From positions 8,232 to 72,231 of the IMG/VR virus record IMGVR_UViG_3300010885_046411: a DNA stretch of 64,000 bases; one strand, written 5' to 3'. The notes under the pieces are model-generated. The model was not told the DNA's origin. It saw nothing but the letters and a program-made list of their open reading frames with translations, and ran no database searches. The stretch is from a virus. Below, piece after piece: positions 6,193 through 32,200 of this stretch (the stretch's first letter is position 1; every line of letters starts with the position of its first letter). The translations under genes were made by a program, and so were the position numbers.

Positions 6193-6381
6193 TTATTGAT
6201 TAACGTGACGCGTTTTAATTGTTTGCACATTGTACCCAGCACAGGCCAGCCGTTCTACAACAGCAGCGACGGCTAGTACCTTAGACGTAGCTTGTATGTG
6301 TTCTATACAAAACCAAACACCCCATTTGCCCCAAGCGTCAGAGTAGCCAGCGTGCGTAACAGCGAACCAAAAATTTTTCAT
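6193..6381 (-). CDS. hypothetical early protein
   Basis: probable start MKNFWF at 6381, downstream of the -7 element at 6430. Confidence 0.55.
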   Translation of the reverse strand: MKNFWFAVTHAGYSDAWGKWGVWFCIEHIQATSKVLAVAAVVERLACAGYNVQTIKTRHVNQ

Positions 6382-6429
6382 GTTGAAGATGATAATAGGG
6401 TAGCACCATTGCCACCCTGTTTGATACTT

Positions 6430-6437
6430 CAAATATA
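6430..6437 (-). promoter_or_regulatory. -7 element TATATTTG, head of the leftward early array
   Basis: TAnnTTTG match with TTTG 16 nt further upstream. Confidence 0.6.
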
Positions 6438-6477
6438 GAACGCCCGTTTTACGCAAATACTTAAATAACAGCGAAAA

Positions 6478-6496
6478 ACTTACGCGTAACTTACAT
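6478..6496. promoter_or_regulatory. shared upstream motif, copy 2
   Basis: ACTTACGCGtaacTTACAT, cf. 2872..2890. Confidence 0.5.
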
Positions 6497-6973
6497 AGGT
6501 TAATTTATTTATAGATACAACGAAACTCTATTACATACACCCAAACCGTTGTATATCATGCCTACCTAAACATGTACAGAATAACGTACATACATTCTAC
6601 TAACAAACTGCCACCACAGCCCAACACATACCACTGCCAAATAGGCACTATGCCATAAATCAAACTGAACGGCCCCAACTCTTACAAGGCACCCAGACCG
6701 CATAGGTAGCCCTTAGATGCGGATATATGTATGGGGTAAGTATCTCCATAGGCTAGCCGATACGGGTAACATATACGATAGTAGGAGATAGTTAGCAGAT
6801 AGACTAGTTATGGGAGTCCTACTCTTTCGCCTCTCTCTCCCCCTTTCCCTCACCCCTCTCTATCCTATTTAACATAACGAAGCCCGTTTCCTTGAAACGT
6901 ACGTACCATAGCCCTACCTAAATCCGTACAGCCAAACGTAGGAGCCTTCATTATGTTAAGTACACCCATAGAA

Positions 6974-7053
6974 TGTATCTATTTAGATACAACCATCGTC
7001 GGACTGTATCTATTTGGATACATGCACCCCGACTCTTGGATACATGCACCCCG
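6974..7053. repeat. palindrome/direct-repeat array
   Basis: TGTATCTATTTAGATACA (6974-6991), TGTATCTATTTGGATACA (7005-7022), and TTGGATACATGCACCCCG twice (7014-7031, 7036-7053). Confidence 0.75.
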
Positions 7054-8015
7054 CCCCTTTGCTCTTAAGGGCAAGGGATACGCGGTAAGCGTAAGCCCTG
7101 CACCCGTTGCCCCGCCTATTACACCCCGACCCCACCCCCTCACACCCTTTCCGTCGGGGGATTGCTCGGCAGGCGGGGGTGTATATATGTTACTCCGCCC
7201 ATTCTGACTATGCGCTACGGTAAACCCTCCTGCCACTCTGAGTTTGCTGCTACGAATAACATTCTGTCTGCACGTATGCTTTACGCTGCTATATGTACTG
7301 CTTTCGTTTCATATTGACGGGTATTTGCTACGGCTCCGTATTTGTTAGCCTCGGTGGGAAACAAGCTGCATTCTGTAGGAATGTACGCGTACTTTGTAGC
7401 AGGGTGGTTAAGCCGTGTAGGTTTTAGACCGCTTCGGTTGTTATACGGCTACGCGCTTGTAGCGCTTGCCTACAACCTAGCTTAGTAGTGTTTTTTTTGT
7501 GATTAGCGCGCGGTGGTAGCGCCCTGCGCGTACACAAGCGTGCGTGCTGGTAGTTTGTATGTTTTGGCGCGTATTGTAGCGTAGCGTACAATTAAGCGCC
7601 GTATTCGGTGTGTCTGTGGTAATATACCGCTGCTAGGTTATAGGTATCGGCGGGTTTGGCTCCGCGCTGTTGGCGCTTGCCTCACCGCCTATTGTATATA
7701 GGGAAAGGTATGCGCTATTGGGGAGCGTATGCGGGTAGAGAGAGGATATGGCTAGGATATAGTTATATTCCCCCCCTGTTAAAATACTTAAATATTTTAA
7801 TCTATGCTAATCATACTGTATGGTTTAGTATGACCGTGCATGGGTAGTAATGTGGGGGAACCGAAGTATGAAGGTAAAGGATTTGAACCTTGTTTCATTA
7901 CTGTATAACACTGGGCGCATTGACCTGAACCAAGCCACGTGTTATGTAGGCAAGTGTAGTAGTATCTGGGATGCACTATAAGATGGCATACGGAGTATTC
8001 CGTCCACTACTGCAA

Positions 8016-8023
8016 CAAAGATA
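8016..8023 (-). promoter_or_regulatory. -7 element TATCTTTG pointing into the non-coding region
   Basis: TAnnTTTG match, back to back with the 8103 element. Confidence 0.5.
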
Positions 8024-8102
8024 ATACATACCTAAGGTTATTTCCAAATCTGCGTACATCTTTTTTTTTCCAAATTAGTTGTTGCGATAATAAAAAGTGT
8101 TG

Positions 8103-8110
8103 TACCTTTG
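8103..8110 (+). promoter_or_regulatory. -7 element TACCTTTG
   Basis: upstream of the first rightward gene (8148). Confidence 0.65.
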
Positions 8111-8147
8111 TCAAGTGCTACAAGGCTCTCCCTTCGAATCATAAATT

Positions 8148-8405
8148 ATGGAAACCAACACCTTCAAAGAGTCTGCTCTAATGCAGATGCTAACAACGGC
8201 ATGTAATGAGGCTGTGTTGTCTTTTCACAACGCAGTAGCCGTTAGCCCTAAATTATATGATTGGGTAAGGTCAATGCAGCCCACTAACACAGACCCAGAA
8301 AGGGTCGGCTTTATGGGTGTTCATGTAATTCTTGCAGAAAGCCTGCCCGAATATTCTTGCATACCATGTCTTCTAAGTAAAGACTTAGACGCTATCCCCT
8401 CATAG
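8148..8405 (+). CDS. hypothetical protein
   Basis: 85 aa, first of a packed rightward array. Confidence 0.65.
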   Translation: METNTFKESALMQMLTTACNEAVLSFHNAVAVSPKLYDWVRSMQPTNTDPERVGFMGVHVILAESLPEYSCIPCLLSKDLDAIPS

Positions 8406-17353: not shown

Positions 17354-18052
17354 ATGGTAGGCAAACGGCTCACGGACATCGTAAACGAAATCCAAATACA
17401 AGAAGGGGCAGCACAGCAGAAAGAGGTTAAGATGCTCTTGGATGGGTATGACTTTGTGCGCCGTATGGCCCTAGATGCTGCGGGGGTGGTTAAGCAGGTG
17501 CAGTTTGATATGCCCCTAAGTCGGCAGAAGCAGTTGCCAGAGGACTTTGTAGATTGGGTAGATGTGAATGTATGTATCGCTGGCGGTGGATGGGAAAGCG
17601 TAGGCACTAAAACACCTACCCGCATAGGAGCCATTGTCCCCGCTAGTACCACAGCCGATGGTGTTAGCCCACTTACCATAGAGCAGGCCGTTATCAATAC
17701 AGGCTACCCCAATGATAATGGCTGGTCTAACAAAGTGCTTGAGAGGCCACAGGCCGACAAGCATAAGAATTTCTTTGTAATAGACAACGGCCTTATACGG
17801 TTTGCGCCAGAGATACCCGACTGCACCATACGCATCTTGTATTTGTCGCTATGCCATACGAATGAGCAAGAGACTATTTTGCACCCGTATTTTATACAGG
17901 CGTGTAAGGCGTATATCACCTATCGGCTAGACCCTACGCAGGCAAGGCAGTATGAGTACGAGAATGAGTGGTCTAAGGCGGTAGTTAGGCAGCAAGCGTT
18001 TAAGTTGCAAGACTTGCTAGACGTATTTTATACCTACACACCAAGACGGTAG
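17354..18052 (+). CDS. tail ring protein
   Basis: LPEDFVDWV motif, IRILYLS, C-terminal ACKAYI helix. Confidence 0.65.
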   Translation: MVGKRLTDIVNEIQIQEGAAQQKEVKMLLDGYDFVRRMALDAAGVVKQVQFDMPLSRQKQLPEDFVDWVDVNVCIAGGGWESVGTKTPTRIGAIVPASTTADGVSPLTIEQAVINTGYPNDNGWSNKVLERPQADKHKNFFVIDNGLIRFAPEIPDCTIRILYLSLCHTNEQETILHPYFIQACKAYITYRLDPTQARQYEYENEWSKAVVRQQAFKLQDLLDVFYTYTPRR

Positions 18053-18078
18053 TGTAGCGTAGGGAATGATATACATCT

Positions 18079-18321
18079 CTAACCCATTGCTAGGATATAA
18101 GATGATTTACTATCTTGACATTTCACTGGCCTTCTACCCTTGGCTTTCACCAAAGATGTTTGAAGCACCTCCACGTCTGTAACGGGGCGTTTCCCACACC
18201 CCGATAAGGCCATAGCCTTAATGTTAATCGCCGCATTTATATTAGCCGCCCTCATTTCCAGAAGGAATTGCTCCCGTTGTTTAACGGTGGGGTTCAGTTT
18301 GAAGAGATAGCCTTGTAGCAC
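18079..18321 (-). pseudogene. tnpB: internally deleted tnpB (IS200/IS605-family) remnant with omega-RNA-like 3' region
   Basis: GTG start gives MLQGYLFKLNPTVKQREQF (TnpB N-terminal YxFxLxPTxxQ motif) joined almost directly to ANINAAINIKxxALSG (TnpB C-terminal DxNAAxNI motif); CATCTTTG 4 nt upstream; GACGTGGAG...TGAAATGTC pairing downstream. Confidence 0.65.
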
Positions 18322-18381
18322 CTGACAAAGATGCGAAACGTGGGTTAGATTTATATATTGCTCCCATCTTATATTTACTAA

Positions 18382-18828
18382 ATGATAAACGTAATCAAAG
18401 TCTCTCCCGAACATAATGACCTGCTGGCACATGACTGGCAGGAGGATGTTAGAGGCTTGTTTTATCGGCAGATATCCATGCCCAAGGGCAAGCCCAAGGA
18501 GGAATGGCTACATTGTGTGCTGGCATGGCGGCTCTTTAATGAGGACTTGTATAATAACCAGCGCAAGAAGATAGACCATATCAACGGCGATACAAGAGAC
18601 TACACCAACGAGAATATATGCGTAGTCATAAAGACAAAATCTAAGACCCGCCGAGGGCATCTTATCCCCGTGCAGGGAGCGTTGATTGAGGGGAAAGGGC
18701 CGACTAGCTGTTGGGCTAAGTTATTATGCGATGATGGCTGGCGCACATTTACGGCAGAGACCGTAGTAGAGGCTAAGAAGAAACGGCAGTCGTATATGGA
18801 TAAATTTGGGTACACTTTTGAAAAATAG
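18382..18828 (+). CDS. HNH endonuclease-like protein (HNH plus AP2-like tail), possibly degenerate
   Basis: LH...IDHINGDTRDYTNENI; the usual DN is DY. Confidence 0.7.
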   Translation: MINVIKVSPEHNDLLAHDWQEDVRGLFYRQISMPKGKPKEEWLHCVLAWRLFNEDLYNNQRKKIDHINGDTRDYTNENICVVIKTKSKTRRGHLIPVQGALIEGKGPTSCWAKLLCDDGWRTFTAETVVEAKKKRQSYMDKFGYTFEK

Positions 18829-18883: not shown

Positions 18884-19918
18884 ATGCCAATGCAAGAATC
18901 ATATATCAACAAAATAATCAATGCCGATTGCATTGAAGGCATGAAAGCAATGCCAGACAACTCGGTGGATTGCTGTATTACTAGCCCTCCTTACTTTGGC
19001 TTGAGAGACTATTTGGTAGATGGGCAAATAGGCTTAGAGCCTACACTGCCAGAGTATATACAAAACTTGGTTGCCGTTTTCAGAGAAGTGAAGCGTGTGT
19101 TAAAGTCAGAGGGCACACTTTGGCTTAACATGGGTGATAGCTATGCTGGCTCAGGCAAGGGGCGTAATATTGATGGCACGGCACATGAGGCATCCTTGCT
19201 ATCAAAGCAAGGGTCTAATGCTGGTACGGTTACTGGTAATATACAAGGCGGCTATACTCCCGAAGGGCTAAAACCAAAAGACCTTATGGGGGTGCCTTGG
19301 CGGCTTGCTTTTGCCCTACAAGACGATGGGTATTACTTACGTCAAGACATAATTTGGCACAAAACAAACCCTATGCCAGAATCGGTAACTGACCGATGCA
19401 CAAAATCTCACGAGTACATCTTCCTCTTGTCTAAGTCTAGCAGGTATTATTTTGACCATGAAGCCATAAAAGAGCCACTTGCTAATGCAAGCATTGGCAG
19501 AGCAGGCCGCAAACAAAATCTTATTGACCGTGAGGGGGTTGGTACTCTTGGTAAGCAAATTCTAAGTGGTGTAAATCAAGATAACGGGTATGCTGGCTTG
19601 GCTCAAGCCAGAAATGGCAAGACGGGATATGATTTAGAATATGGGATGCGTAGTAAGCGCAGCGTTTGGAGCGTATCTGTAAATTCTTTTTCAGGCGCTC
19701 ACTTTGCCACGTTTCCAGAAGAATTGATTATCCCATGTGTGAAAGCGGGATGCCCTAAAGGGGGGCTTATATTAGACCCATTCATGGGGGCTGGCACTAC
19801 TGCCCTTGTGGCGGAATCACACGGTAGAAATTATGTAGGCTTTGAGTTAAACCCCGACTACATAAAAATTGCCCAAAAGCGCATAGATGCGGCGTTTGGC
19901 ATGTGGGCAAACAAGTAA
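18884..19918 (+). CDS. DNA amino-methyltransferase (N4-C/N6-A, beta class)
   Basis: TSPPY catalytic motif, LDPFMGAGTT SAM-binding motif, HFATFP; -7 element at 18863 with TTTG at 18841. Confidence 0.92.
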   Translation: MPMQESYINKIINADCIEGMKAMPDNSVDCCITSPPYFGLRDYLVDGQIGLEPTLPEYIQNLVAVFREVKRVLKSEGTLWLNMGDSYAGSGKGRNIDGTAHEASLLSKQGSNAGTVTGNIQGGYTPEGLKPKDLMGVPWRLAFALQDDGYYLRQDIIWHKTNPMPESVTDRCTKSHEYIFLLSKSSRYYFDHEAIKEPLANASIGRAGRKQNLIDREGVGTLGKQILSGVNQDNGYAGLAQARNGKTGYDLEYGMRSKRSVWSVSVNSFSGAHFATFPEELIIPCVKAGCPKGGLILDPFMGAGTTALVAESHGRNYVGFELNPDYIKIAQKRIDAAFGMWANK

Positions 19919-23298: not shown

Positions 23299-26200
23299 AT
23301 GAACGAACCACAAGTACCGAATGATGGGCAGCCTACCGCCCCTTCTTTGCAGCCCGTATATGAATACTTGGCTCGTGATAAGGGGTTTAAGGATATTGTG
23401 CCCACCTATCAGGATTTTGTAGAGGCAAAAGACACAGAGGGTATGCTTTTGCATATATCTAAAGTGTATGATAAAGACAAAACCTTTGCGACTATGCTTG
23501 ACAAGGGAGTAGATGCTAAAACCGTGGCTGCCGAGCGGCAGCGTGCAGAGGCAGATAATCGCATACAACAAAGGGAGTCGCAGGTTATTTCTCGTGCTAA
23601 AGATATAGCCCAAGAATTGTCGGCTACCGTGCGCCCTAAAAAATCAGGAGACGTAGATTACGCAGGCAAGGCCACATTAGGGCAATTATATGATTACTTT
23701 TCTGGTGCTGGTGGCGATTTTCAAAAGAATTTTCCGACAGAAAAAGATTTGCACCAAATTACAAAAACACCCGAATTTCGTAAAACGCTTAAAGATGCTT
23801 ATACGAAAGACCCCAACTTCAAACAACTAATTGATACGGGTACATACCCTGACCAAAGGCCAAGCAAACGGCCTCAAAACGAGATGCAGCAGATGATATT
23901 TGATGTATCTCAGCAGCAGCAAGACCCTAACGAGACTAAGGTATCAGCAGGCTACAACCCCATAAAAATTAAAGCCTTTGGGAAACAGTTTGAAGCACCG
24001 CGTATGCTATCAAACTTGGTTGCGTCTGCGGCTATCAATTTAACTAGGGGCGTAATTGGCGGCATATCTACGTTTGTCGGTGCTGCTGGGCAGGGGATGA
24101 AGGCGTTTAGAGATATGGGGAACGCTGCAACGGGGCAAGGCGAAGAAGGCGTTGAGGCAGGATATTTAGAGCGCAAGGCCCAAGAAGTATTTGAAGGGGG
24201 TGCTAAACTAGCCAATTATGGCAGCGAGAAAGGGCAACAAGCCTTTGCGAATAGTGGTGTACCCCTAGAATCTGGCGGCGTAGTAACCGACCCCAGTGCG
24301 GGGGCAGGCACAATAGCCAAGTCGGCGGCGGGATATGTGGCAGGGCAATTAACAAATTCACTGCCTTACATAGTCCCCTATCTGGCTGGCCCCGCCGCAG
24401 GGTTTGCGACAAATGTCGTGCAGATGTCTGGCGATAATACGCAAAACGCCTACGACAAACTAAAGAACAAGATAACGCAAGAAAACGGCGGCATACCCGC
24501 AACGGATGAGCAGGTATTAGAAAGTAAGCAACTAAACCCTATCATCTCTGTTATTGCCGCCGTGCCAGAGGCCGCTATTGAGCGATATTTTGGCGAGGGC
24601 TTCTTGGTAAAGAACTTAACAGAGGCGGTTGCCGCCAAGAAACTAAAGCAACTTGTCGCTGAAAAGGGGCAGGCAGGGCTTAAAGAGTTTGCACAAAAAT
24701 ACCTAAACAAGAATTTCGCCAAGGAATTTGCTGTTAATTTGGCAAAAGACGTTGCTGGCGAAGAAGTACAATCAGGTATAGAGGCTACGCAAGGCAGCTA
24801 TCAGGCTGGCACCCCACAAACCGATGCAGGCGGCGGGGCAGACCGAAAAGTATATACAGAGACGTTGGCGGCGGCGGGTGCGCTAGGCGTAGGGCTTGCT
24901 GCGGCACCTGCTATAATCAACTCCGTTAAAAGCAAAGGCCCAGCCCCCATAACCGAGCAAACCGCCGCCTCAATGGCTGGCGCATACACCATGCCCAATG
25001 CCCCCAAGGCAAGCCCACAGAAAGGGGCTGGCGTGGTTGATGCTATCAACGGCATACTTATAGATGCCGAGCCTAGCAAGTCTCGTAGTGCGGCAATGAA
25101 GGCCGTTCTGGAGGATGCTATGGAGCATGACGATGTGCCCATAACAACGCAAGACTTGGCGGGGCTATCTACAACGACAGAGGCAGGTACAGATATAGTA
25201 TCTAGGCTGCGCCCCGATGAGGAAGGTAATCTAACCCTTGTGCAAGATGGGGAGGAGTTGCGGCCTCTAACCAAAGAAGAAAGCGATGAGGCCAGCACCT
25301 TTGCTACGGCGAATTTATTGATAGGCGTTCATGCAGGCAGCCTAACCAAGGCTCATGCCAGAGTATTGACGGACATCCTAGATGGGGCTGCGATAGCGCA
25401 AGCCAAGCAGTCTGCCGTTAATGACGATGGCTCACCCAAGAACCCGTTAGCCCTAGCGGCTGATAATGCCCTTACAGCCCTAAAAGGTATAGCCGACAAG
25501 AATGTCTTAGATACCGAAAGCGGCAAGGTAAAAGAGGGCGAAGTGCCCCAAGAGTTGCAATGGCAACGTGAGGCACTAGATAATATAGGTTCTATGCAGG
25601 CGGGGGATGTGTTTCGTGCTATGGATGCCGACATGGTATTTAATGGCATAGATGCCGATGGCAATGTATCTATCACAGATAATAACGGGGCCACATTGAC
25701 GCTTGCGCCAGAGCAAGTGGCGGGACTTATGACGGCCCAACGTGCCACTGATGCGGATGTGGCCGCACAGAAAGAGGCCGTATCGGCCTATGGCAATATA
25801 CCCGCAAGCAGCCCTGCGTATGAGCCATTACGGGCAATGAAAGACTTCACGAAGTCTATGCGTGCTGCGTTCCCCAACTTGCAGGTTATTGCCGACAAGG
25901 GCGAGATGGATGCTGTAATCAACAAGAAAGGTATAGCCCTAAAAGATGGCGATACAGTCTATGGGTTTGTGCATAATGGCAAGGTGTACTTAGACCCCGA
26001 CAAGGTTACAAAAGACACCCCTGCCCATGAGATACTAGGGCACGTACACAATAAACTGATGAAAGAGCAGATGCCTGACCTATATACTAAACTTACGGGT
26101 TTAGTTGGGCAGACACCGCTATATCAAGAGGTTGCTGATGATGAGTTCTATAAGGCACGTATAGCCGATGGCTCTATGACCGCCGATGATATTGCCGAGG

Positions 26201-29200
26201 AGGCGTTGGCGCAGTTTATAGCCAAGCACTACGGCAACCAACAATCCCCGTATGTGGGCACACGTTGGTATGAGAAATTGGCGGAGATAATCGGCAAGGC
26301 ATGGCGTAAACTGTTCGGCAAAACGAAGCAGTTGGCAGACCTATCCCCTGCCGATATACAAACCCTAACGCTAGAATCTTTTGGGGATTTGTTGAACCAA
26401 GAGGTTAAGCGTGGGCAGTCTAGCATAGCCCAAAAAGGCGGTAAGGCAACGAACGCTACTGACATATCTTTGAACCTTGCCAGCGGAGTAGTACCGCAAG
26501 CAACAAACACTCAAGCAAATGAGAATTTACCCCAGACCAGCAACCAAGAACCAGCCAATGCTGGACTTCGGCAATCGCAAACAGAAGCATCAACTCAGCG
26601 AGCAGGAGTTGAACAGTCTCCACAAAATGCTTACCGACGAGAAGAAGCAAGGGAAGCCCTCAAACAACTAAGTAAAGACGGCGTTCTAGTAAGCTCGGCT
26701 AAAACTGGCAGCACGGGCAAGCCTATGACAGAGGCAGAAATAGATGGGCAAATGGCCCTTCTTGATGCTATGTCTAATGTATGGAGCAAGACGACAGGTA
26801 AAAACAACTTCTACGAGACGTTTATTTCAGACATCAAACGGGGCGACATAGCCTACGTTAAAAGTCTGGGCGGGGTTTTGTTCCAAGATGAAAGCGACCC
26901 TAAGCGGCCCACTTCTACCGTTTCCTTAGCCATATTCAAAGAACAGCAGTTTGAGAAGATGGTGGGGCAGAACGTATCTCCCCAATCTATAAAGGACTTT
27001 ATTAAAGGCCGTGGCAAGCAAATTGAGAGAGATATAATCAACGAAGTCCTTGACTACGACAAGTATCAAGGCCAGAAACGTATATCTTTCAACGAGTTCA
27101 AGGCTGACGTAGAAATCCAAGTTATGAAACTTGAGAAGATACGCACGCAGTCTTATGCAACTTATGGCCGAGAAAACCTTGGCTCATCAAGAGATTATGG
27201 CGACGCAGAAACGGTCATTTTCAACTCGCCAATAAATCACGGCGAAAAAGGGCACTTTAGCGGGGACTTTGACACTTCTGGCTTATCTGATAAAGAGTGG
27301 GAGGTAAGACAAATCCCTGGCACAGACACCTATGCGGCTGTTGATAAAGCCATGCCTGCGGGTGCCACACAGGCTGAAATCCAACAATATGTAGGTACGG
27401 CTGGAACCGAGGCAGATGTAAAGAGGTGGGTTGAGCGAAGAAATGCAGCACTAGGGACACCTATAAACGAAGGTTTGTTTGGCCATATTAGGTCTTGGTT
27501 TAACAAGGCCACGGGCGTATTTCACTTAGCAGAGGCCCAAAGCGACTACTTCCAAAAAAACAAAGCATCAGAACTGCTTGCTGCTAGTGTGCCGCAGGAT
27601 GAAGTAGATGAGTACATGAATAGGGAGGTTTGGAAGCCTTTTCACCAAAAATATGCCCAAGAAATCAAAGAAAACACTCAAATCAAAAGTGCATTTAAAG
27701 ACAATGCTTGGGAGTTCTATGACAAGAATGGAACTATTGTAAATAGAAAACCGCTAAACCGTAAGCCATTTATTGGCTATGAAGAGGGGGAACACGAGGA
27801 AGCCAATGGATTGTCTATTGCATTATCTCGCTTGGCCAGAACCGAAGTGAGCGTACTAGAACGCACACGGAATACTGGTATGGTTTTCACTGTTAATGTA
27901 GAGCCTGGCAATATAGAGCGAAGACAATTTGAGTTCAAAACAAGAGAAGAAGCAGAATCCTTTTCACTTGAATATGGACGTTATATCTCGGAAACCAAAG
28001 AGTATTCTGATGATTTGTATGATAGATACAAAAAAGAAAAGATTGCCCTTGAGATAAAGGAGCAAGAGTATATTAACAAACGGGTTGAGGAGTTAAAAAC
28101 TCAGAAGCCCCCACTGGTTCTAAAGCAATTCGTTGCTTCTCAGAAGGTACATGAACTGCGCCTATTCAGAGAGGCCATTAAACACGCCGCCGAGGAGGGG
28201 GCTACAACTCTGCGTTTCCCATCTCCCTACACCATAGCGGTTATAGAGGGGTATGTGAGTGGGGGCGGTAACGGCGCACCATATACCATTGAACAAGGTG
28301 ATTCTGACCGATTGTATGCGGGGGATGTTATTGACTATGGCGGCACCCGAATGACCGTAGTAGATTCAGACCGCTACAGCATAACTGTTGCGCCATCAGA
28401 TGAGGTATATAACTATGATGTTTATGAGTATATATATAGCGAGGCCACGAAGCGTATTTATCAAATAGAATATGAGGGGAAAAACCATTTTGCCGACATA
28501 GAAAACATAACCGCCGAAGATATCGCCTCTTATGAGCCTGACGAATGGATGGGAAATGTTGCTAAGGACTTGCTCCAAGAGGCCATTGATAATGCCAAAG
28601 ATGGCGAAACCGTGGCATGGCGTGATATTGAAAGTGAATTAGAAAGAATGGTAAGAGACAGTTACTCAGACGAATCATTAGAAGATTTGTTTTTTGGGTA
28701 TCAAGCCATCTATGCATACGGTAACGACTATGTATATGTAGTTAAAGGACGCGGCAGCGTGGAAACACTCCAACAGCCAGATGAGTACGAGGCGGTATCT
28801 AACGCAGATAATTATGAAGAAAACCTGTCCTCTGAACAAAAAACAGTTGTAAGCAAATACAAAGAAATGGGCGAGGCGATTGTGAAGATGCGCCCAGATG
28901 CGAGCATTGTAACCGACGACAACGGTTTTGATTGGCTAGAAACCAAAATAACACCAGCAGATATCAGTAACCCTGTTATTGCCTTCCAGCAAGAGGGGGC
29001 TAAGATTAAAGGGGCTGTTGATTTTGTTAGTGATAACAAAGCCACCATACACCTATTTGATGGAGCTGATGTATCTACGCTGGCCCACGAAATAGGTGGA
29101 CACATAGGGCGTAGGATGCTAGAAAAGATGGCTGAAACATCGCCTAAGTTTGCCAAAGACTACGAAACTGCCAAGAAATGGGCGGGTGCTAAAGACGGGG

Positions 29201-32200
29201 TATGGACTACAGCCGCCGAAGAAAAGTTTGCTCGTGGATTTGAGAAGTACCTACTGGAAGGCAAAGCCCCAAATGATGCGCTTAAAAACGTATTTAAGAT
29301 GTTTGCCAAGTGGCTTACAAATATCTACCAGCACATTAAAGGCAGCAGCATAGACATAGAACTAACGCCAGAGATACGTCAGGTGTTTGACAACTTGCTT
29401 GCTGACCAATCCTCAACTACCGAATCTGCCCAACCTCTCACTACCCCCCAAAAGCCGAAACAAGAAGGCCCAATATTTGCAGACTTAGCAACTTTTGTTA
29501 AAACGCTATCCGAGGCAGACGCAAAAGAGTATGCACGATATGAAGACATAGCGTACAGGCTGGCTGCTATGCAAGGCAGAGAGCAGGGCTATAAACCGTA
29601 TGAGGTATCTAAGGCAGAGCGACAAGAGTACGCAGCCTTAGAACAAAAGTTTGACACTATGTTTGCTAATTTTGCAGCAGAGGTTTATAAAGAGGATGAA
29701 GAATCGGCAAAAGAAATAGACATTGCGGCGAAAAAATTAAACGGTATAATTAAAAATCTTAAATACCCAGAATCTATTAAGGAAATAATAAGAAAAAGAT
29801 TTGGATTAAATAGCAATGGCAACTATGTTTCTTCTATACCATTTGATACACTTGTAAAGTACAACGAGTTTTCCAGAACAACAAAATTTATAAAAGATAT
29901 TTTTGCTGAATTACTAAGAGAAAAATATGGAGAATTTTCTAAACAGTATTCACATGAACTAGATAAAATGTATAATCAAGTTAATTATTATATGCAAAGA
30001 TTGCTGGATTCTGAGGGAGATGGTAGTGCACTGGTTGATGAAATACCTGAAGTTTCAAAAATTGCTAATATAGAAATCCATATACAAGATTTGTTTAATG
30101 AATTAGATAAGTCGGCTTTGAATGTTGCTTCGGCAGAAGAAAAATCTGAACCCAAGGGCAAAAAAGAGAGCGGAATAAAAGAAAAAAATTACCAACTTCA
30201 GCATCGTATAACCAAAGATGAGACTTCATCTACTTTAGATGACCTTACTCAAGGGTCTTCACCTTCTGATATCTACACGAACATTGGACAATATGCAAAC
30301 CTTTCTGAGAAATCATATCAAGAGTCCGTTAAAGCCGTAAAAGCGGCCAAAGGCAATCCCGATGCTATTGTTACCATATACCGTAGCGTACCCAAAGGTG
30401 TATCTGCTATAAATGCTGGAGACTGGGTTTCGTTGTCAAAAACCTATGCTACCGAACATGGGTATCACGAAACAGACCAAAGCCAAGATATGCCTGTTAT
30501 ATCAATGCAGGTAAAAGCTAAAGATGTTGTTTGGGATGGCAATGACCTTAATGAGTTTGCTTACTTCCCAAATGACATAAGGTTTTCTGCAACAACTGAA
30601 ACCACAGCCGAAGAAAGCGGGGAATCCGAAAAGCCTAGCGGCCCCTTCAAAGACAGCCCCGCTATGTCCAAGGCCCAAGACGATAAAAAAGAAGCCGAGA
30701 CAGCCCTTGCCGAAGCACAGAAGCGTGGGCAAAAGTCTCTTATAGACAAGGCAAAAGAGGAACTAGCCAAGGCCCAACTGGCCTACGATACCGAGTTTGG
30801 GAAGTATGTAGAGGCTAAAACGCCTGAACTATACATTAACTTAACCCGCCTATTTGAGGAGGCTACCAACCGCAAACGCACCAAAGAGCAACTAGAGCGT
30901 GGCGAGGCAAACAAGTTCTTCGTTAAGGCTCTATTCTCAAAGCGGCCCGAAATCTCGGACATGAAGAAATTTGGGCTGCTAAATAAGCAATTAGCAGACC
31001 TAGATGCCCTATCTGAACATGCCATACAGACACGCACCAACTACGTCCGTGATTTGGTGGATGGGCTAACGGCCCCGCAGATACACCACATGGTACGCTA
31101 TATTATACTTAGCGACGTAGTGGGGGCATACGATGAGAAATATAGGGGTGCCGATGGGTTGCGTGAGAAACTATTGCCCTTGGCTCTGTCGGAGGCGCAG
31201 GCCCGTGAGCAGTTTGCCACGTATAAGGCATGGCTAGATGATAGCCCTATTGTTAAAGAGCGTGTAGAGTGGCGCAGGCAATACCTCAAGAACCTATACA
31301 ATGAAGCTGTAAAATACGGCCTAGCCACGTCTTTTATCACAGACATAAAAGATGAAAATGAGCAATACTATGAGTGGTTCCACCGTAGTATTATGAAGTA
31401 TGAAGATGGCGAGGGCGGCAAGGCTGGCAGAAAATATACCGAATCCTTAAATGCCACCCTAAAGCATAATGCCTTTAGGGAACGTGCTGGCTCGGATGCC
31501 GACTACGATATACGCCTTGGTACGATAGATGGCAATGTGGTGGCAGCCCTAACGTATGCGGTAGAACGCCGTAAGATAGCCATAGAAATGATGGCCCCGT
31601 ATGTCCAAAAGACTATGGATGTTAAGGAGGCACTAGAGAACTTCAAAAAAACTAGCTCGGCTTTCTTGAACTTGACGCTGCTGATAAATCATATTACTGC
31701 CAAAATAGCTGACATCAATAAAATAGGCAGCCAAAATAGCGCAAAGCAGTCTTTAATACGGGCCAAGCAAGTAGAACTTGTGAGGGATAACCCAGAGCAT
31801 ATTGCCCTATTAAAAGAAATGGCAACCCTGCGCAAGCAGTCTAAAGCCTACCAAGATGCTCTATCTCAATACGATAAAGCCCTAGCGCAAGCCCCGCTTG
31901 TAGAAAAGCGCAAGGCTGTATCGGAGGCAAAGAGGAAACTAACATCTCTTAAAAAGGCTGGAAATAAATACCAGTCCGAAAAACCCAAGTCTGGCATTGC
32001 AGTATATAGCAAGGAGGATGGCTCAAGGAAAGCCTATACCCCCCAATATGTTTTCGCTAAGATAGCCTACGAAGAAGCAGAAAATGAGTACGCTACAGCC
32101 CTTGGCAACTTCGGCCCTGCCAACGAGGCTGCCGTAGCCAAGGCTAAAGCATTGTCGGAGATTGAGGGCTACCAAGCCCTGATGAATAAAGATAAAGAGG

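What the first reader, a model, noticed from the sequence alone, without database searches (positions are those of the whole stretch)
18060..18333. Miniature tnpB: protein core deleted, promoter and omega-RNA-like scaffold apparently kept
Seen: on the - strand CATCTTTG is followed 4 nt later by GTG, giving an 80-aa ORF whose first 19 aa resemble the TnpB N-terminus and which then jumps to ANINAAINIK..ALSG, like the TnpB RuvC-III/C-terminal motif with the catalytic Asp read as Asn. Downstream lie hairpin GGGGTGT..ACGCCCC, a GACGTGGAG...TGAAATGTC long-range pairing, internal hairpin TTGG-TGAAAG-CCAA and a final AGAT..ATCT hairpin. Established: TnpB omega-RNAs overlap the 3' end of tnpB and take their guide from flanking DNA. 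Inference: roughly 300 codons were lost while the RNA-producing parts stayed, so this may be a stand-alone guide-RNA cassette used in trans by a TnpB or TldR-like protein elsewhere in the phage or host, or simply a non-autonomous IS remnant.
Basis: partly seen in the sequence, partly recalled or inferred. Interest (0 to 1): 0.75.

Follow-up and report, generated by a model that had tools for sequence, protein, structure and literature searches.

The report
Miniature tnpB transposon relic in phage
A 304-base stub of a TnpB-carrying transposon sits between two genes of a freshwater phage; it has lost the nuclease gene's core but kept both transposon ends and the whole stretch that in intact relatives lies where TnpB guide RNAs are made.

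Summary
On the minus strand, GTG 18321 opens an 80-codon frame. Its first 19 residues match TnpB N-termini and it then jumps to the RuvC-III motif with Asn for the catalytic Asp.

Generic searches (Rfam, phmmer, peptide-pattern scans) found nothing. A degenerate pattern for the window's own INAAINIK found 80 listed viral loci, 77 of them in TnpB context. Among these and later finds are intact relatives that share the 3' DNA. A covariance model built from relatives only hits window 18060-18237(-) end to end (40 bits, E 6.8e-6).

The relatives are tnpB-only elements of 1350-1528 bp with terminal inverted repeats. Five of seven family elements have perfect 8-bp target duplications, and one carries an IS1595-type DDE transposase. 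The window's copy (18062-18365) has both inverted repeats but no duplication. It lacks about 330 codons and the conserved upstream ACTATTTATA motif.

The complete 72-kb phage has no TnpB, Y1 TnpA or IS1595 transposase.

Verdict: a non-autonomous miniature derivative with an intact guide-RNA-like module. Use in trans is possible but untested, and no transcript data exist. TnpB on IS1595-type ends looks undescribed.

The parts
18062..18365 (-). Whole miniature element, 304 bp, from left inverted repeat to right inverted repeat
   Evidence: Ends set by homology to relatives and by the inverted-repeat alignment. The flanking 8-mers TATAAGAT and TACGCTAC agree at only 3 of 8 positions, so no intact target duplication.
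18341..18365 (-). Left terminal inverted repeat, GGGAGCAATATATAAATCTAACCCA
   Evidence: 19 of 25 identical to the reverse complement of the right end. 1 of 1000 shuffles reach the score in the 80-nt search space; 4 of 300 in 1630 nt.
18326..18333 (-). CATCTTTG, a near match to the TAnnTTTG -7 box used upstream of this phage's genes
   Evidence: Sequence. TAnnTTTG is enriched: 72 sites against 42.9 +/- 6.5 in shuffles. 17 of the 72 lie 5-60 nt upstream of ORF starts, against 1.29 +/- 1.04. Promoter activity here is inferred.
18298..18330 (-). 33-nt segment (-7 box tail plus codons 1-8) repeated at 8106-8138(+)
   Evidence: 88% identity in the own-genome BLAST. The 22-mer occurs 2 times in the window against 0 in 100 shuffles.
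18079..18321 (-). Residual 80-codon in-frame ORF (GTG start, TAG stop)
   Evidence: It is probably a by-product of an in-frame deletion.
18253..18321 (-). TnpB N-terminal remnant, residues 1-23
   Evidence: PF12323 positions 1-20, E 0.012 on the 25-aa piece and 0.12 on the 80-aa ORF. The N-block HMM from 40 phage TnpBs ranks it 1 of 1629 six-frame pieces, E 0.0076.
18208..18243 (-). RuvC-III motif remnant NINAAINIKAMAL, with Asn where relatives have the catalytic Asp
   Evidence: phrog_506 positions 353-381 of 403, E 0.16. The C-block HMM ranks it 1 of 1629, E 0.0097-0.036. INAAINIK sits in TnpB context in 77 of 80 listed viral loci.
18060..18237 (-). Guide-RNA-like (omega-RNA-like) 3' module, from the RuvC-III codons to the right end
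   Evidence: Covariance model R1, built from relatives only, matches model positions 1-182 of 182: 40 bits, E 6.8e-6. The next hit in the 64 kb has E 1.7. Length is 178 nt against 172-182 nt in relatives.
18184..18202 (-). Hairpin whose loop, GGGAA, is complementary to the right-end TTCCC
   Evidence: The same loop-to-tail complementarity is seen in L226, L225, L227 and L230. In L231 it changes on both sides to GGAAA/TTTCC. It could equally be a subterminal transposase-binding repeat.
18117..18177 (-). Long-range stem GACGT (18177-18173) with ATGTC (18121-18117), enclosing hairpin 18155-18138
   Evidence: Predicted. In relatives the homologous 5-mers pair as GGTGT/ACACT, GGCGT/TCGCT and AATGT/GCATT.
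18062..18116 (-). Conserved AAGATAGTAAATC, a variable terminal hairpin (18103-18075), and the right inverted repeat GTATATCATTCCC
   Evidence: A 19-nt block and a 15-nt block are identical with L210 and L209 at collinear offsets; sequences diverge after TTCCC.
18042..18061 (-). Flank that would be the guide if the RNA reads through the right end; it overlaps the stop codon of the virion gene 17354-18052(+)
   Evidence: Inference by analogy with TnpB omega-RNAs. Where the scaffold ends is not established.
8106..8138 (+). Second copy of the element's 5' 33 nt, directly after a perfect TAccTTTG box (8103-8110) and 10 nt before the ATG at 8148
   Evidence: The three differences change Tyr, Leu and Lys of the TnpB-like N-terminus to Ser, Pro and Glu, and a stop codon follows.

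Best explanation
Window 18062-18365, minus strand, is a 304-bp non-autonomous miniature derivative (a MITE-like stub) of a tnpB-only transposon family found in large phage genomes.

Full-length relatives are 1350-1528 bp. Each has a left inverted repeat, an untranslated leader with a conserved ACTATTTATA motif, a tnpB gene of about 380-400 codons, a structured 3' region and a right inverted repeat. The family's ends and 8-bp target duplications match those of an element that carries an IS1595-type DDE transposase. These elements are therefore probably moved in trans by that kind of enzyme, not by IS200/IS605 or IS607 transposases.

The window's copy lost most of the leader and, in frame, about 330 codons: the REC, WED and zinc-ribbon parts and the RuvC-I and RuvC-II motifs. 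It kept both inverted repeats, the first 23 codons, and everything from the RuvC-III motif to the right end. In intact relatives that last stretch overlaps the end of tnpB, as TnpB guide RNAs do.

The 80-aa product cannot be a nuclease. The phage encodes no TnpB and no transposase of the three kinds searched. The element is therefore most likely an immobile passenger.

Shown: its homology, its ends and its deletions. Inferred: that it is transcribed from the -7-like box. Also inferred: that the RNA could load a cognate TnpB supplied by a co-infecting phage or the host, and would then direct cutting of genomes that lack the insertion next to the virion gene.
For: Protein remnants:
- PF12323 positions 1-20 match residues 1-19. 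This is the only Pfam hit for the 80-aa ORF and the 25-aa piece, E 0.012 to 0.12.
- phrog_506 positions 353-381 of 403 match residues 27-55, E 0.16. That family rings in the same control genomes as PF07282.
- A degenerate DNA pattern for the window's own INAAINIK found 87 viral stretches. Of the 80 listed, 77 lie directly after a zinc ribbon and HDRD, and 50 lie in frames of 340 aa or more.
- An N-terminal HMM from 40 of those TnpBs, which were selected by the C-terminal motif only, ranks the mini ORF piece 1 of 1629 six-frame pieces of the phage (E 0.0076). The full-length HMM also ranks it first, with two collinear domains at positions 3-20 and 351-365.

DNA homology:
- Blocks AATGTCAAGATAGTAAATC and GTATATCATTCCC are shared with L210 and L209 at collinear offsets.
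- The distance from the RuvC-III motif to the right end is 178 nt, against 178, 182 and 172 nt in relatives.
- Model R1, built from relatives only, hits 18060-18237(-) at full length: 40 bits, E 6.8e-6.

Ends:
- Inverted repeats score above all 300 shuffles in L226, L227, L230, L231 and L229. The mini copy has 19 of 25 identical.
- Perfect 8-bp duplications occur in 5 of 7 elements. One of these is L232, which encodes PF12762 (E 9e-47) and PF12760 (E 2.9e-9).

The phage lacks PF07282, PF01385, phrog_506, PF01797 and PF12762.

A 151-nt contig of another sample spans the right-end junction with no differences (record 2).
Against: - Many generic searches saw nothing. These were phmmer against 1.84 billion representatives (self only), the word-indexed search of longer proteins, peptide-pattern scans of the viral, genome and metagenome collections, tblastn and blastn against named phages and plasmids, and NCBIfam.
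- My first two TnpB HMMs gave only rank 7 (E 9.6) and rank 12 (E 15) of 1629.
- The genome search with PF12323 on the phage returned no match at E up to 10.
- The mini copy has no target duplication (3 of 8 positions), and its inverted repeat is the weakest of the set.
- Conservation of the last 30 nt or so may reflect transposase binding rather than RNA function. The GGGAA-to-TTCCC complementarity could be a subterminal DNA repeat.
- L226 and L225 do not fit the P1 anchors, and in L230 and L228 the fifth P1 pair is T-T.
- The C-terminal tail after NIK is not similar to the family (rank 401 of 1629).
- No transcript evidence exists.
Confidence: 0.8

Rival explanations
1. The element is a working stand-alone guide-RNA cassette. 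It is transcribed from the -7-like box. Its RNA is loaded by a cognate TnpB (or a nuclease-dead relative) made by a co-infecting phage or the host. That complex cuts or silences DNA matching the flank, for example sibling phages that lack the insertion.
For: - The complete 3' module is kept at native length, while both the leader and the gene core were deleted.
- The frame stays open for 80 codons.
- The fold is minus-strand-biased: z -2.54 against -1.31.
- The 5' 33 nt are shared with a real-looking phage promoter and leader.
- One paper states that PATEs often encode omega-RNAs that TnpB from other elements must act on in trans (PMC10055086, passage seen).
- Another complete phage (G409) also carries a tnpB-less member and no TnpB.
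Against: - No TnpB is in the phage.
- The family's end pattern was found in 0 of 401 sampled Bacteroidota genomes.
- No RNA data exist for the element.
- CATCTTTG misses the first T of the consensus.
- The G409 miniature lost the RNA module, so retention is not a rule for the family.
- An in-frame deletion has a one-in-three prior.
Confidence: 0.15
2. The 80-aa ORF is a functional small phage protein, for example a decoy that binds the family's guide RNA or its TnpB. The RNA-level features would then be secondary.
For: - The frame is open with a start codon 4 nt after the -7-like box.
- A gene caller called it on one contig (P0001).
Against: - It was called on only 1 contig, although the neighbouring virion protein is on 5.
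- Its tail after NIK has no relatives.
- It lacks every folded domain of TnpB.
Confidence: 0.04
3. The resemblance is chance: an ordinary intergenic region with hairpins and a duplicated promoter.
For: - Each Pfam and PHROG hit alone is weak.
- The CATCTTTG octamer is compositionally common in this genome: 15 sites against 2.4 expected.
Against: - The covariance model match is end to end.
- The same ORF ranks first for both the N-terminal and the C-terminal blocks.
- 15- and 19-nt identical blocks lie at collinear offsets.
- The element has an inverted repeat.
Confidence: 0.01

Closest known systems
PATEs: palindrome-associated, protein-less derivatives of IS200/IS605 elements that keep omega-RNAs
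   Same: Short and non-autonomous. The transposon ends and the guide-RNA region are kept and the nuclease gene is lost. Any activity needs TnpB and transposase in trans (PMC10055086, passages seen).
   Different: The ends here are terminal inverted repeats. The family makes 8-bp target duplications. IS200/IS605 elements have neither (PMC13565253, passage seen). A residual in-frame ORF remains. The host replicon is a phage.
TnpB with omega-RNA of IS200/IS605 and IS607 elements
   Same: The relatives' TnpBs carry the N-terminal motif, a zinc ribbon and HDRD-x-NAA-x-NI. A structured conserved region overlaps the 3' end of the gene and runs to the right end.
   Different: The window's copy lacks the RuvC core and the zinc ribbon. 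The transposon backbone is not of either family: the IS607 abstract states it has no terminal inverted repeats (PMC6188088, listing).
IS1595-family insertion sequences and their MITEs
   Same: Ends of the form GGGAAC...GTTCCC and 8-bp duplications are shared with L232, which encodes PF12762 and PF12760. L229 is a 165-bp miniature of the same family.
   Different: The cargo is tnpB with a guide-RNA-like module. My one search for IS1595 together with TnpB returned 9 papers. None described this, judging from the titles and one passage.
TldR and dCas12f, nuclease-dead TnpB or Cas12f used as RNA-guided transcription factors
   Same: The catalytic Asp is replaced, and Bacteroidota is the setting of the dCas12f work (PMC13472631, abstract seen).
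   Different: Those proteins are full length and bind RNA and DNA. This 80-aa stub cannot.

Membership tests
TnpB protein (PF12323 + PF01385 + PF07282) | N-terminal HTH_OrfB_IS605 motif | tested here: met
   Only the first 19-20 positions are present. PF12323 E 0.012 to 0.12. The N-block HMM ranks it 1 of 1629, E 0.0076.
TnpB protein (PF12323 + PF01385 + PF07282) | RuvC core (OrfB_IS605) and zinc ribbon | tested here: not met
   No PF01385 or PF07282 match anywhere in the 72-kb phage. The ORF has only 80 codons.
TnpB protein (PF12323 + PF01385 + PF07282) | RuvC-III motif with the catalytic Asp (D-x-N-A-A-x-N-I) | tested here: not met
   The motif NAAINIK is present, but the residue aligned with Asp in 77 of 80 relatives is Asn.
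Guide (omega) RNA module of this tnpB family | End-to-end fit to a model built from intact relatives, in the native position and at native length | tested here: met
   R1: positions 1-182 of 182, 40 bits, E 6.8e-6. Length 178 nt against 172-182 nt. The model has only 4 base pairs, so this is mainly sequence homology.
Guide (omega) RNA module of this tnpB family | Conserved secondary structure supported by covariation | tested here: inconclusive
   The P1 stem pairs in the mini copy and in 4 relatives, with changes on both sides at 3 of 5 positions. That is five sequences, four of them distinct. L226 and L225 do not fit. The loop-to-tail complementarity has one double change, in L231.
Guide (omega) RNA module of this tnpB family | Transcribed and bound by TnpB | not testable with these tools
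   The one RNA run laid covers only 17478-17632. Rfam has no power here: 0 of 20 genuine TnpB loci matched any guide-RNA family.
IS200/IS605 | No terminal inverted repeats, no target duplication, Y1 transposase | tested here: not met
   Inverted repeats. 8-bp duplications in 5 of 7 family members. No PF01797 in the phage.
IS607 | No terminal inverted repeats; serine transposase | tested here: not met
   Inverted repeats are present. I did not search for a serine recombinase.
IS1595-type element, non-autonomous derivative | Family-type inverted repeats at both ends | tested here: met
   Left end GGGAGCAATATAT... and right end ...GTATATCATTCCC, against L232's GGGAACGATATAC... and ...GTATATCGTTCCC.
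IS1595-type element, non-autonomous derivative | 8-bp target-site duplication | tested here: not met
   TATAAGAT against TACGCTAC, 3 of 8 positions. It is met in 5 of the 7 elements examined.
IS1595-type element, non-autonomous derivative | A DDE transposase available | tested here: not met
   No PF12762 in the phage. The host is unknown.

The most novel reading that the evidence does not exclude
The phage carries a guide without a nuclease. This miniature element would express a complete TnpB guide RNA whose guide is the DNA next to an essential virion gene. It would borrow TnpB from co-infecting large phages, where the intact family lives, or from the host. The complex would cut sibling or competitor genomes that lack the insertion, so the element would drive its own spread by homing. 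More broadly, TnpB and its guide RNA would here ride on IS1595-type DDE transposons with inverted repeats and 8-bp duplications. That partnership lies outside the canonical IS200/IS605 and IS607 associations.
Probability: 0.13. Interest if true: 0.8.

Novelty: new variant of a known kind. Interest (0 to 1): 0.55.

Why it matters
Protein-less derivatives of TnpB elements that keep a guide RNA are already discussed for IS200/IS605. A decayed tnpB in a phage is therefore not surprising in itself.

Two points go further.

First, the family has inverted repeats and 8-bp duplications, and it shares its ends with an IS1595-type transposase element. If this holds, TnpB's homing logic has been joined to a cut-and-paste DDE transposon. 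That raises the question of how a flank-derived guide works when the insertion duplicates its target.

Second, a complete phage that keeps the whole guide module but no nuclease is a natural test case for guide RNAs acting in trans between co-infecting mobile elements.

Tried and rejected
Searches that found nothing or only chance matches:
- Rfam at gathering thresholds, and at E up to 10: nothing except a chance U6atac match. As a control, 0 of 20 real TnpB loci matched a guide-RNA family, so this negative carries no weight.
- phmmer against 1.84 billion representatives: self only.
- Word-indexed search of longer proteins: none.
- Peptide-pattern scans with the 80-aa ORF in the viral, genome and metagenome collections: none confirmed.
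- The flanking 232-aa protein: no relatives in the viral or metagenome collections or in named phages. It found only itself among 5.8 billion proteins.
- megablast, blastn and tblastn against phages and plasmids: chance matches only.
- PDB and NCBIfam: no TnpB hit.
- Exact viral scans with three window strings: two gave 0 hits. The hairpin 18-mer gave 10 hits in about 6 unrelated contexts, so it is a generic hairpin.
- The 80-aa ORF against 401 Bacteroidota genomes: 75 hits at E up to 1, all noise on inspection.
- The 341-nt query against 30 Bacteroidota TnpB loci: only codon-level similarity at the NAA motif.

Tests that gave weak or no support:
- HMMs from 13 Bacteroidota TnpBs and from 114 Salinibacter-like TnpBs: rank 7 and rank 12 of 1629.
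- Pairwise scores against 13 TnpB termini: 16 of 500 shuffles reached the N-terminal score and 5 of 500 the C-terminal score.
- Fold z-scores of nine real TnpB 3' regions ranged from +0.09 to -4.6, with the sense strand more stable in 9 of 9. This did not discriminate.
- ESM Atlas: 'Transposase (Fragment)' clusters at 0.89 and 0.88, and a 110-aa cluster carrying PF12323 and PF07282 at 0.84. These are leads only.

Idea rejected:
- That CTTTGT..ACAAGG and CTTTGG..CCAAGG are IS605-type left and right hairpins. There are 4 such sites against 0.95 expected (maximum 4 in shuffles), and CATCTTTG is compositionally common at 15 against 2.4. The inverted repeats supersede this idea.

Sequencing runs:
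- Runs X2 to X5 hold only single 151-259-nt contigs, and none covers 18154-18458. Nothing can be said about transcripts or empty sites.

Tools and data not available:
The 11,253-nt contig of a 94-96% identical relative therefore could not be read.
- Paper supplements were not requested.

Full report
**Setting.** The window is bases 8232-72231 of a complete 72,231-bp virus record with direct terminal repeats. My own check found a 123-nt exact repeat at the ends. TAnnTTTG boxes, the Bacteroidota-type -7 promoter element as I recall it, occur 72 times against 42.9 +/- 6.5 in shuffles. Seventeen of the 72 lie 5-60 nt upstream of ORF starts on the same strand, against 1.29 +/- 1.04. The only run holding the whole 1.8-kb stretch is a freshwater metagenome. 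The host is therefore probably a freshwater member of the Bacteroidota; this is an inference. The finding lies in a 329-nt gap between a virion structural gene (17354-18052, plus strand; phrog_13977, E 1.1e-4) and a weak HNH endonuclease gene (18382-18828, plus strand; HNH_3, E 9.4e-4). It is on the opposite strand to all its neighbours.

**Observation.**
- CATCTTTG at 18333-18326, then four bases, then GTG at 18321.
- An 80-codon frame ending at TAG 18081-18079.
- An N-terminus MLQGYLFKLNPTVKQREQF, then RAANINAAINIKAMALSG.
- The named hairpins.

The minus strand folds better than the plus strand: -49.5 kcal/mol (z -2.54) against -36.0 (z -1.31).

**First round: little support.**
- Pfam gave one weak hit, HTH_OrfB_IS605 positions 1-20 on residues 1-19, at E 0.012 for the 25-aa piece and 0.12 for the ORF.
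- PHROGs gave phrog_506 'transposase', positions 353-381 of 403, at E 0.16. That family rings in the same control genomes as the TnpB zinc-ribbon family.
- Everything else was blank. This covers Rfam, phmmer against 1.84 billion representatives, the word-indexed search and peptide-pattern scans of three collections. It also covers BLAST against named phages and plasmids, PDB and NCBIfam.
- HMMs that I built from 13 Bacteroidota TnpBs and from 114 Salinibacter-like TnpBs ranked the ORF only 7th and 12th of 1629 six-frame pieces. Block HMMs did better: the RuvC-III block ranked it first (E 0.0097-0.036) and the N-terminal block 12th.
- The Rfam negative means nothing. None of 20 genuine TnpB loci matched any guide-RNA family.

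**Finding the family.**
- A degenerate DNA pattern for the window's own INAAINIK found 87 viral stretches. Of the 80 listed, 77 lie immediately after a zinc ribbon and an HDRD-type motif, and 50 lie in frames of at least 340 aa. This octapeptide is therefore close to diagnostic of TnpB.
- I took the 50 full-length proteins and removed duplicates. I also dropped six with truncated or atypical N-termini (L135, L139, L144, L153, L176, L180). That left 40.
- Their N-terminal block, which played no part in their selection, ranks the mini ORF first of 1629 (E 0.0076, residues 2-19). The full-length HMM ranks it first with two collinear domains. The C-terminal block score from this set is circular, and I do not count it.
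- The tail after NIK is not conserved at the protein level (rank 401).

**DNA homology of the 3' part.**
- BLAST of the 260 nt downstream of the motif against the same loci showed two things at collinear offsets. L210 shares a 19-nt identical block (AATGTCAAGATAGTAAATC). Both L210 and L209 share a second block (GTATATC[A/G]TTCCC).
- A gapped pattern for these blocks found 6 viral contigs and 0 of 401 sampled Bacteroidota genomes.
- The distance from the RuvC-III codons to the end of the shared sequence is 178 nt in the window, against 178, 182 and 172 nt in L210, L224 and L209. Beyond TTCCC all the sequences diverge.
- A covariance model built from three full relatives and one partial relative, without the window, matches window 18060-18237(-) over model positions 1-182 of 182. 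The score is 40 bits, E 6.8e-6. The next hit in 64 kb has E 1.7.
- In the five viral records the model finds 7 copies. Five lie behind intact tnpB genes of 380-470-codon frames. One (L228) is only the last 100 nt or so, with no tnpB. One (L229) is a miniature.

**Structure.**
- In L227, L230, L228 and L231, the five bases before G[GA]AGG pair with the five bases before [AG]A[AG][AG]TA[GT]. The pairs are GGTGT/ACACT, GGCGT/TCGCT (last pair T-T) and AATGT/GCATT.
My regex picked a second G[GA]AGG in the window, which does not pair. I chose the first by homology, which is a degree of freedom.
- Three of the five positions change on both sides across these sequences. L226 and L225 do not fit this scheme.
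- In 6 of 8 sequences the exact complement of the five bases before the right end occurs upstream. In five of them, the window included, it lies in a clean predicted hairpin loop. L231 shows a double change, GGAAA with TTTCC. L228 has no such complement. The cut L222 piece has it, but no hairpin is predicted there.
- This complementarity could be an RNA pseudoknot. It could equally be a subterminal copy of the transposase-binding end. I cannot separate the two.

**What kind of transposon.**
- The relatives' left ends are the reverse complement of their right ends: 21-25 of 24-26 identical, and above all 300 shuffles in L226, L227, L230, L231 and L229. L225 is weak.
- The window's copy has GGGAGCAATATATAAATCTAACCCA at 18365-18341, against the reverse complement of its right end: 19 of 25 identical. 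One of 1000 shuffles reach that score in an 80-nt space, and 4 of 300 in 1630 nt.
- A scan for the end motif in the five viral records found an inverted pair 1667 bp apart in G409. It encloses a 313-aa protein with DDE_Tnp_IS1595 (E 9e-47) and Zn_ribbon_IS1595 (E 2.9e-9).
- With the ends set at GG[GA]A...TTCC[C], perfect 8-bp duplications flank 5 of 7 elements. These are three tnpB-bearing ones (L226, L230, L231), the 165-bp miniature L229 and the transposase element L232. L227 and the window's copy show 3 of 8.
- IS200/IS605 elements have neither inverted repeats nor duplications (PMC13565253, passage). IS607 has no inverted repeats (PMC6188088, abstract in listing).
- The family is therefore a tnpB cargo on IS1595-type ends. 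A nested origin, an IS605-like tnpB unit inserted into an IS1595 miniature, is not excluded. In that case the guide would begin after AAGATAG and not after TTCCC.
- One search for IS1595 together with TnpB returned 9 papers. By title, and from one passage read, none describes this. That is a thin basis for calling it unpublished.

**What the window's copy lost and kept.**
- All five intact relatives have ACTATTTATA 6-38 nt before the ATG, and 115-285 nt between the left end and the start. The mini copy has 44 nt there, lacks the motif, and starts with GTG.
- It then lacks about 330 codons. The junction lies between residues 23 and 27.
- It keeps both inverted repeats and the complete 3' module.
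- The phage has no TnpB core or zinc ribbon, no Y1 transposase and no IS1595 transposase.
- G409, a complete 355-kb phage, likewise has a miniature and no zinc-ribbon hit. Its miniature lost the RNA module, however.

**The 33-nt repeat.**
- Window 18330-18298(-) recurs at 8106-8138(+) at 88% identity. The 22-mer I tested occurs 2 times against 0 in shuffles.
- There it follows a perfect TAccTTTG box and lies 10 nt before the first gene of the rightward block of small ORFs.
- The repeat covers codons 1-8, which align with the relatives' N-terminal codons. Its three differences at 8106 destroy the TnpB-like residues, and a stop codon follows. I therefore read 8106 as a fragment derived from the element rather than the reverse. 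This is an inference.
- TATAAGATGG, the mini copy's left flank plus its first two bases, also occurs at 7977-7986. That is 130 nt before the position equivalent to the start codon, which resembles the native spacing. The match has E 0.08 in that small search and may be chance.

**Population data.**
- A 151-nt contig from another sample covers 17996-18146 without a difference. The right-end junction therefore exists there too.
- A relative with 96% and 94% identical flanking proteins lies on an 11,253-nt contig. I could not read its DNA.
- No contig of the four runs laid covers 18154-18458, and the RNA run covers only part of the virion gene.

**Verdict.** The thing is real. It is a miniature, internally deleted member of a tnpB-carrying inverted-repeat transposon family of phages. 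Its guide-RNA-like module is intact by homology, but nothing shows that it is used. Protein-less derivatives with guide RNAs are already discussed in print (PMC10055086). The new elements are the IS1595-type backbone and the phage that holds a guide module without a nuclease.

Noticed in passing
L226, L230, L231 (tnpB-bearing), L229 (165 bp), L232 (IS1595 transposase); viral records G406, G407, G409, G410: A family of tnpB-only elements of 1350-1528 bp in large phage contigs (86-393 kb). They have terminal inverted repeats of about 25 nt and perfect 8-bp target duplications. They share their ends with an element that encodes an IS1595-type DDE transposase. This is not the canonical IS200/IS605 or IS607 setting of TnpB.
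   Followed up: partly
L225 and L226, about 100-285 nt upstream of the tnpB start codon: Two to three tandem units (GTTGTAA[A/T]TCC followed by about 25 nt) lie between the left end and tnpB. The unit's head resembles the GTTGTAAATCC just before the right-end hairpin of L229. Their meaning is unknown.
   Followed up: no
window 6300-8100: A stretch of about 1.7 kb with no long ORF lies between the leftward and rightward gene blocks. It holds tandem 22-nt repeats (7014-7057), paired near-palindromes GTATCTATTT[A/G]GATACA (6971-7022) and other repeats. It may be an origin or a control region.
   Followed up: no
window 7977-7986 and 8103-8138: TATAAGATGG, the mini element's left flank plus its first bases, recurs 130 nt upstream of the 33-nt repeat. 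This may be a second, more decayed copy that now supplies the promoter of the rightward early block. The match is weak (E 0.08).
   Followed up: partly
G409 (complete 355-kb phage with terminal repeats): It carries a 165-bp miniature (L229) and a transposase-bearing IS1595-type element (L232), but no TnpB zinc-ribbon match.
   Followed up: partly
G407:C1:11264-12705: A Y1 transposase (PF01797, E 1.3e-42) lies next to a second TnpB that model R1 does not match. This looks like a classical IS605-type element in the same phage record as a member of the inverted-repeat family.
   Followed up: no
window 18382-18828: A weak HNH_3 endonuclease gene starts 16 nt beyond the element's left end. A relative 94% identical at the protein level keeps it. 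Two kinds of selfish element sit side by side between a virion gene and a DNA methylase gene (18884-19918).
   Followed up: partly
window 23299-34968: A single ORF of 3889 codons on the plus strand. I did not examine it.
   Followed up: no
whole phage genome: CATCTTTG occurs 15 times against 2.4 expected, mostly on the strand opposite to the genes. This is a compositional or codon effect that can mimic promoter boxes.
   Followed up: no
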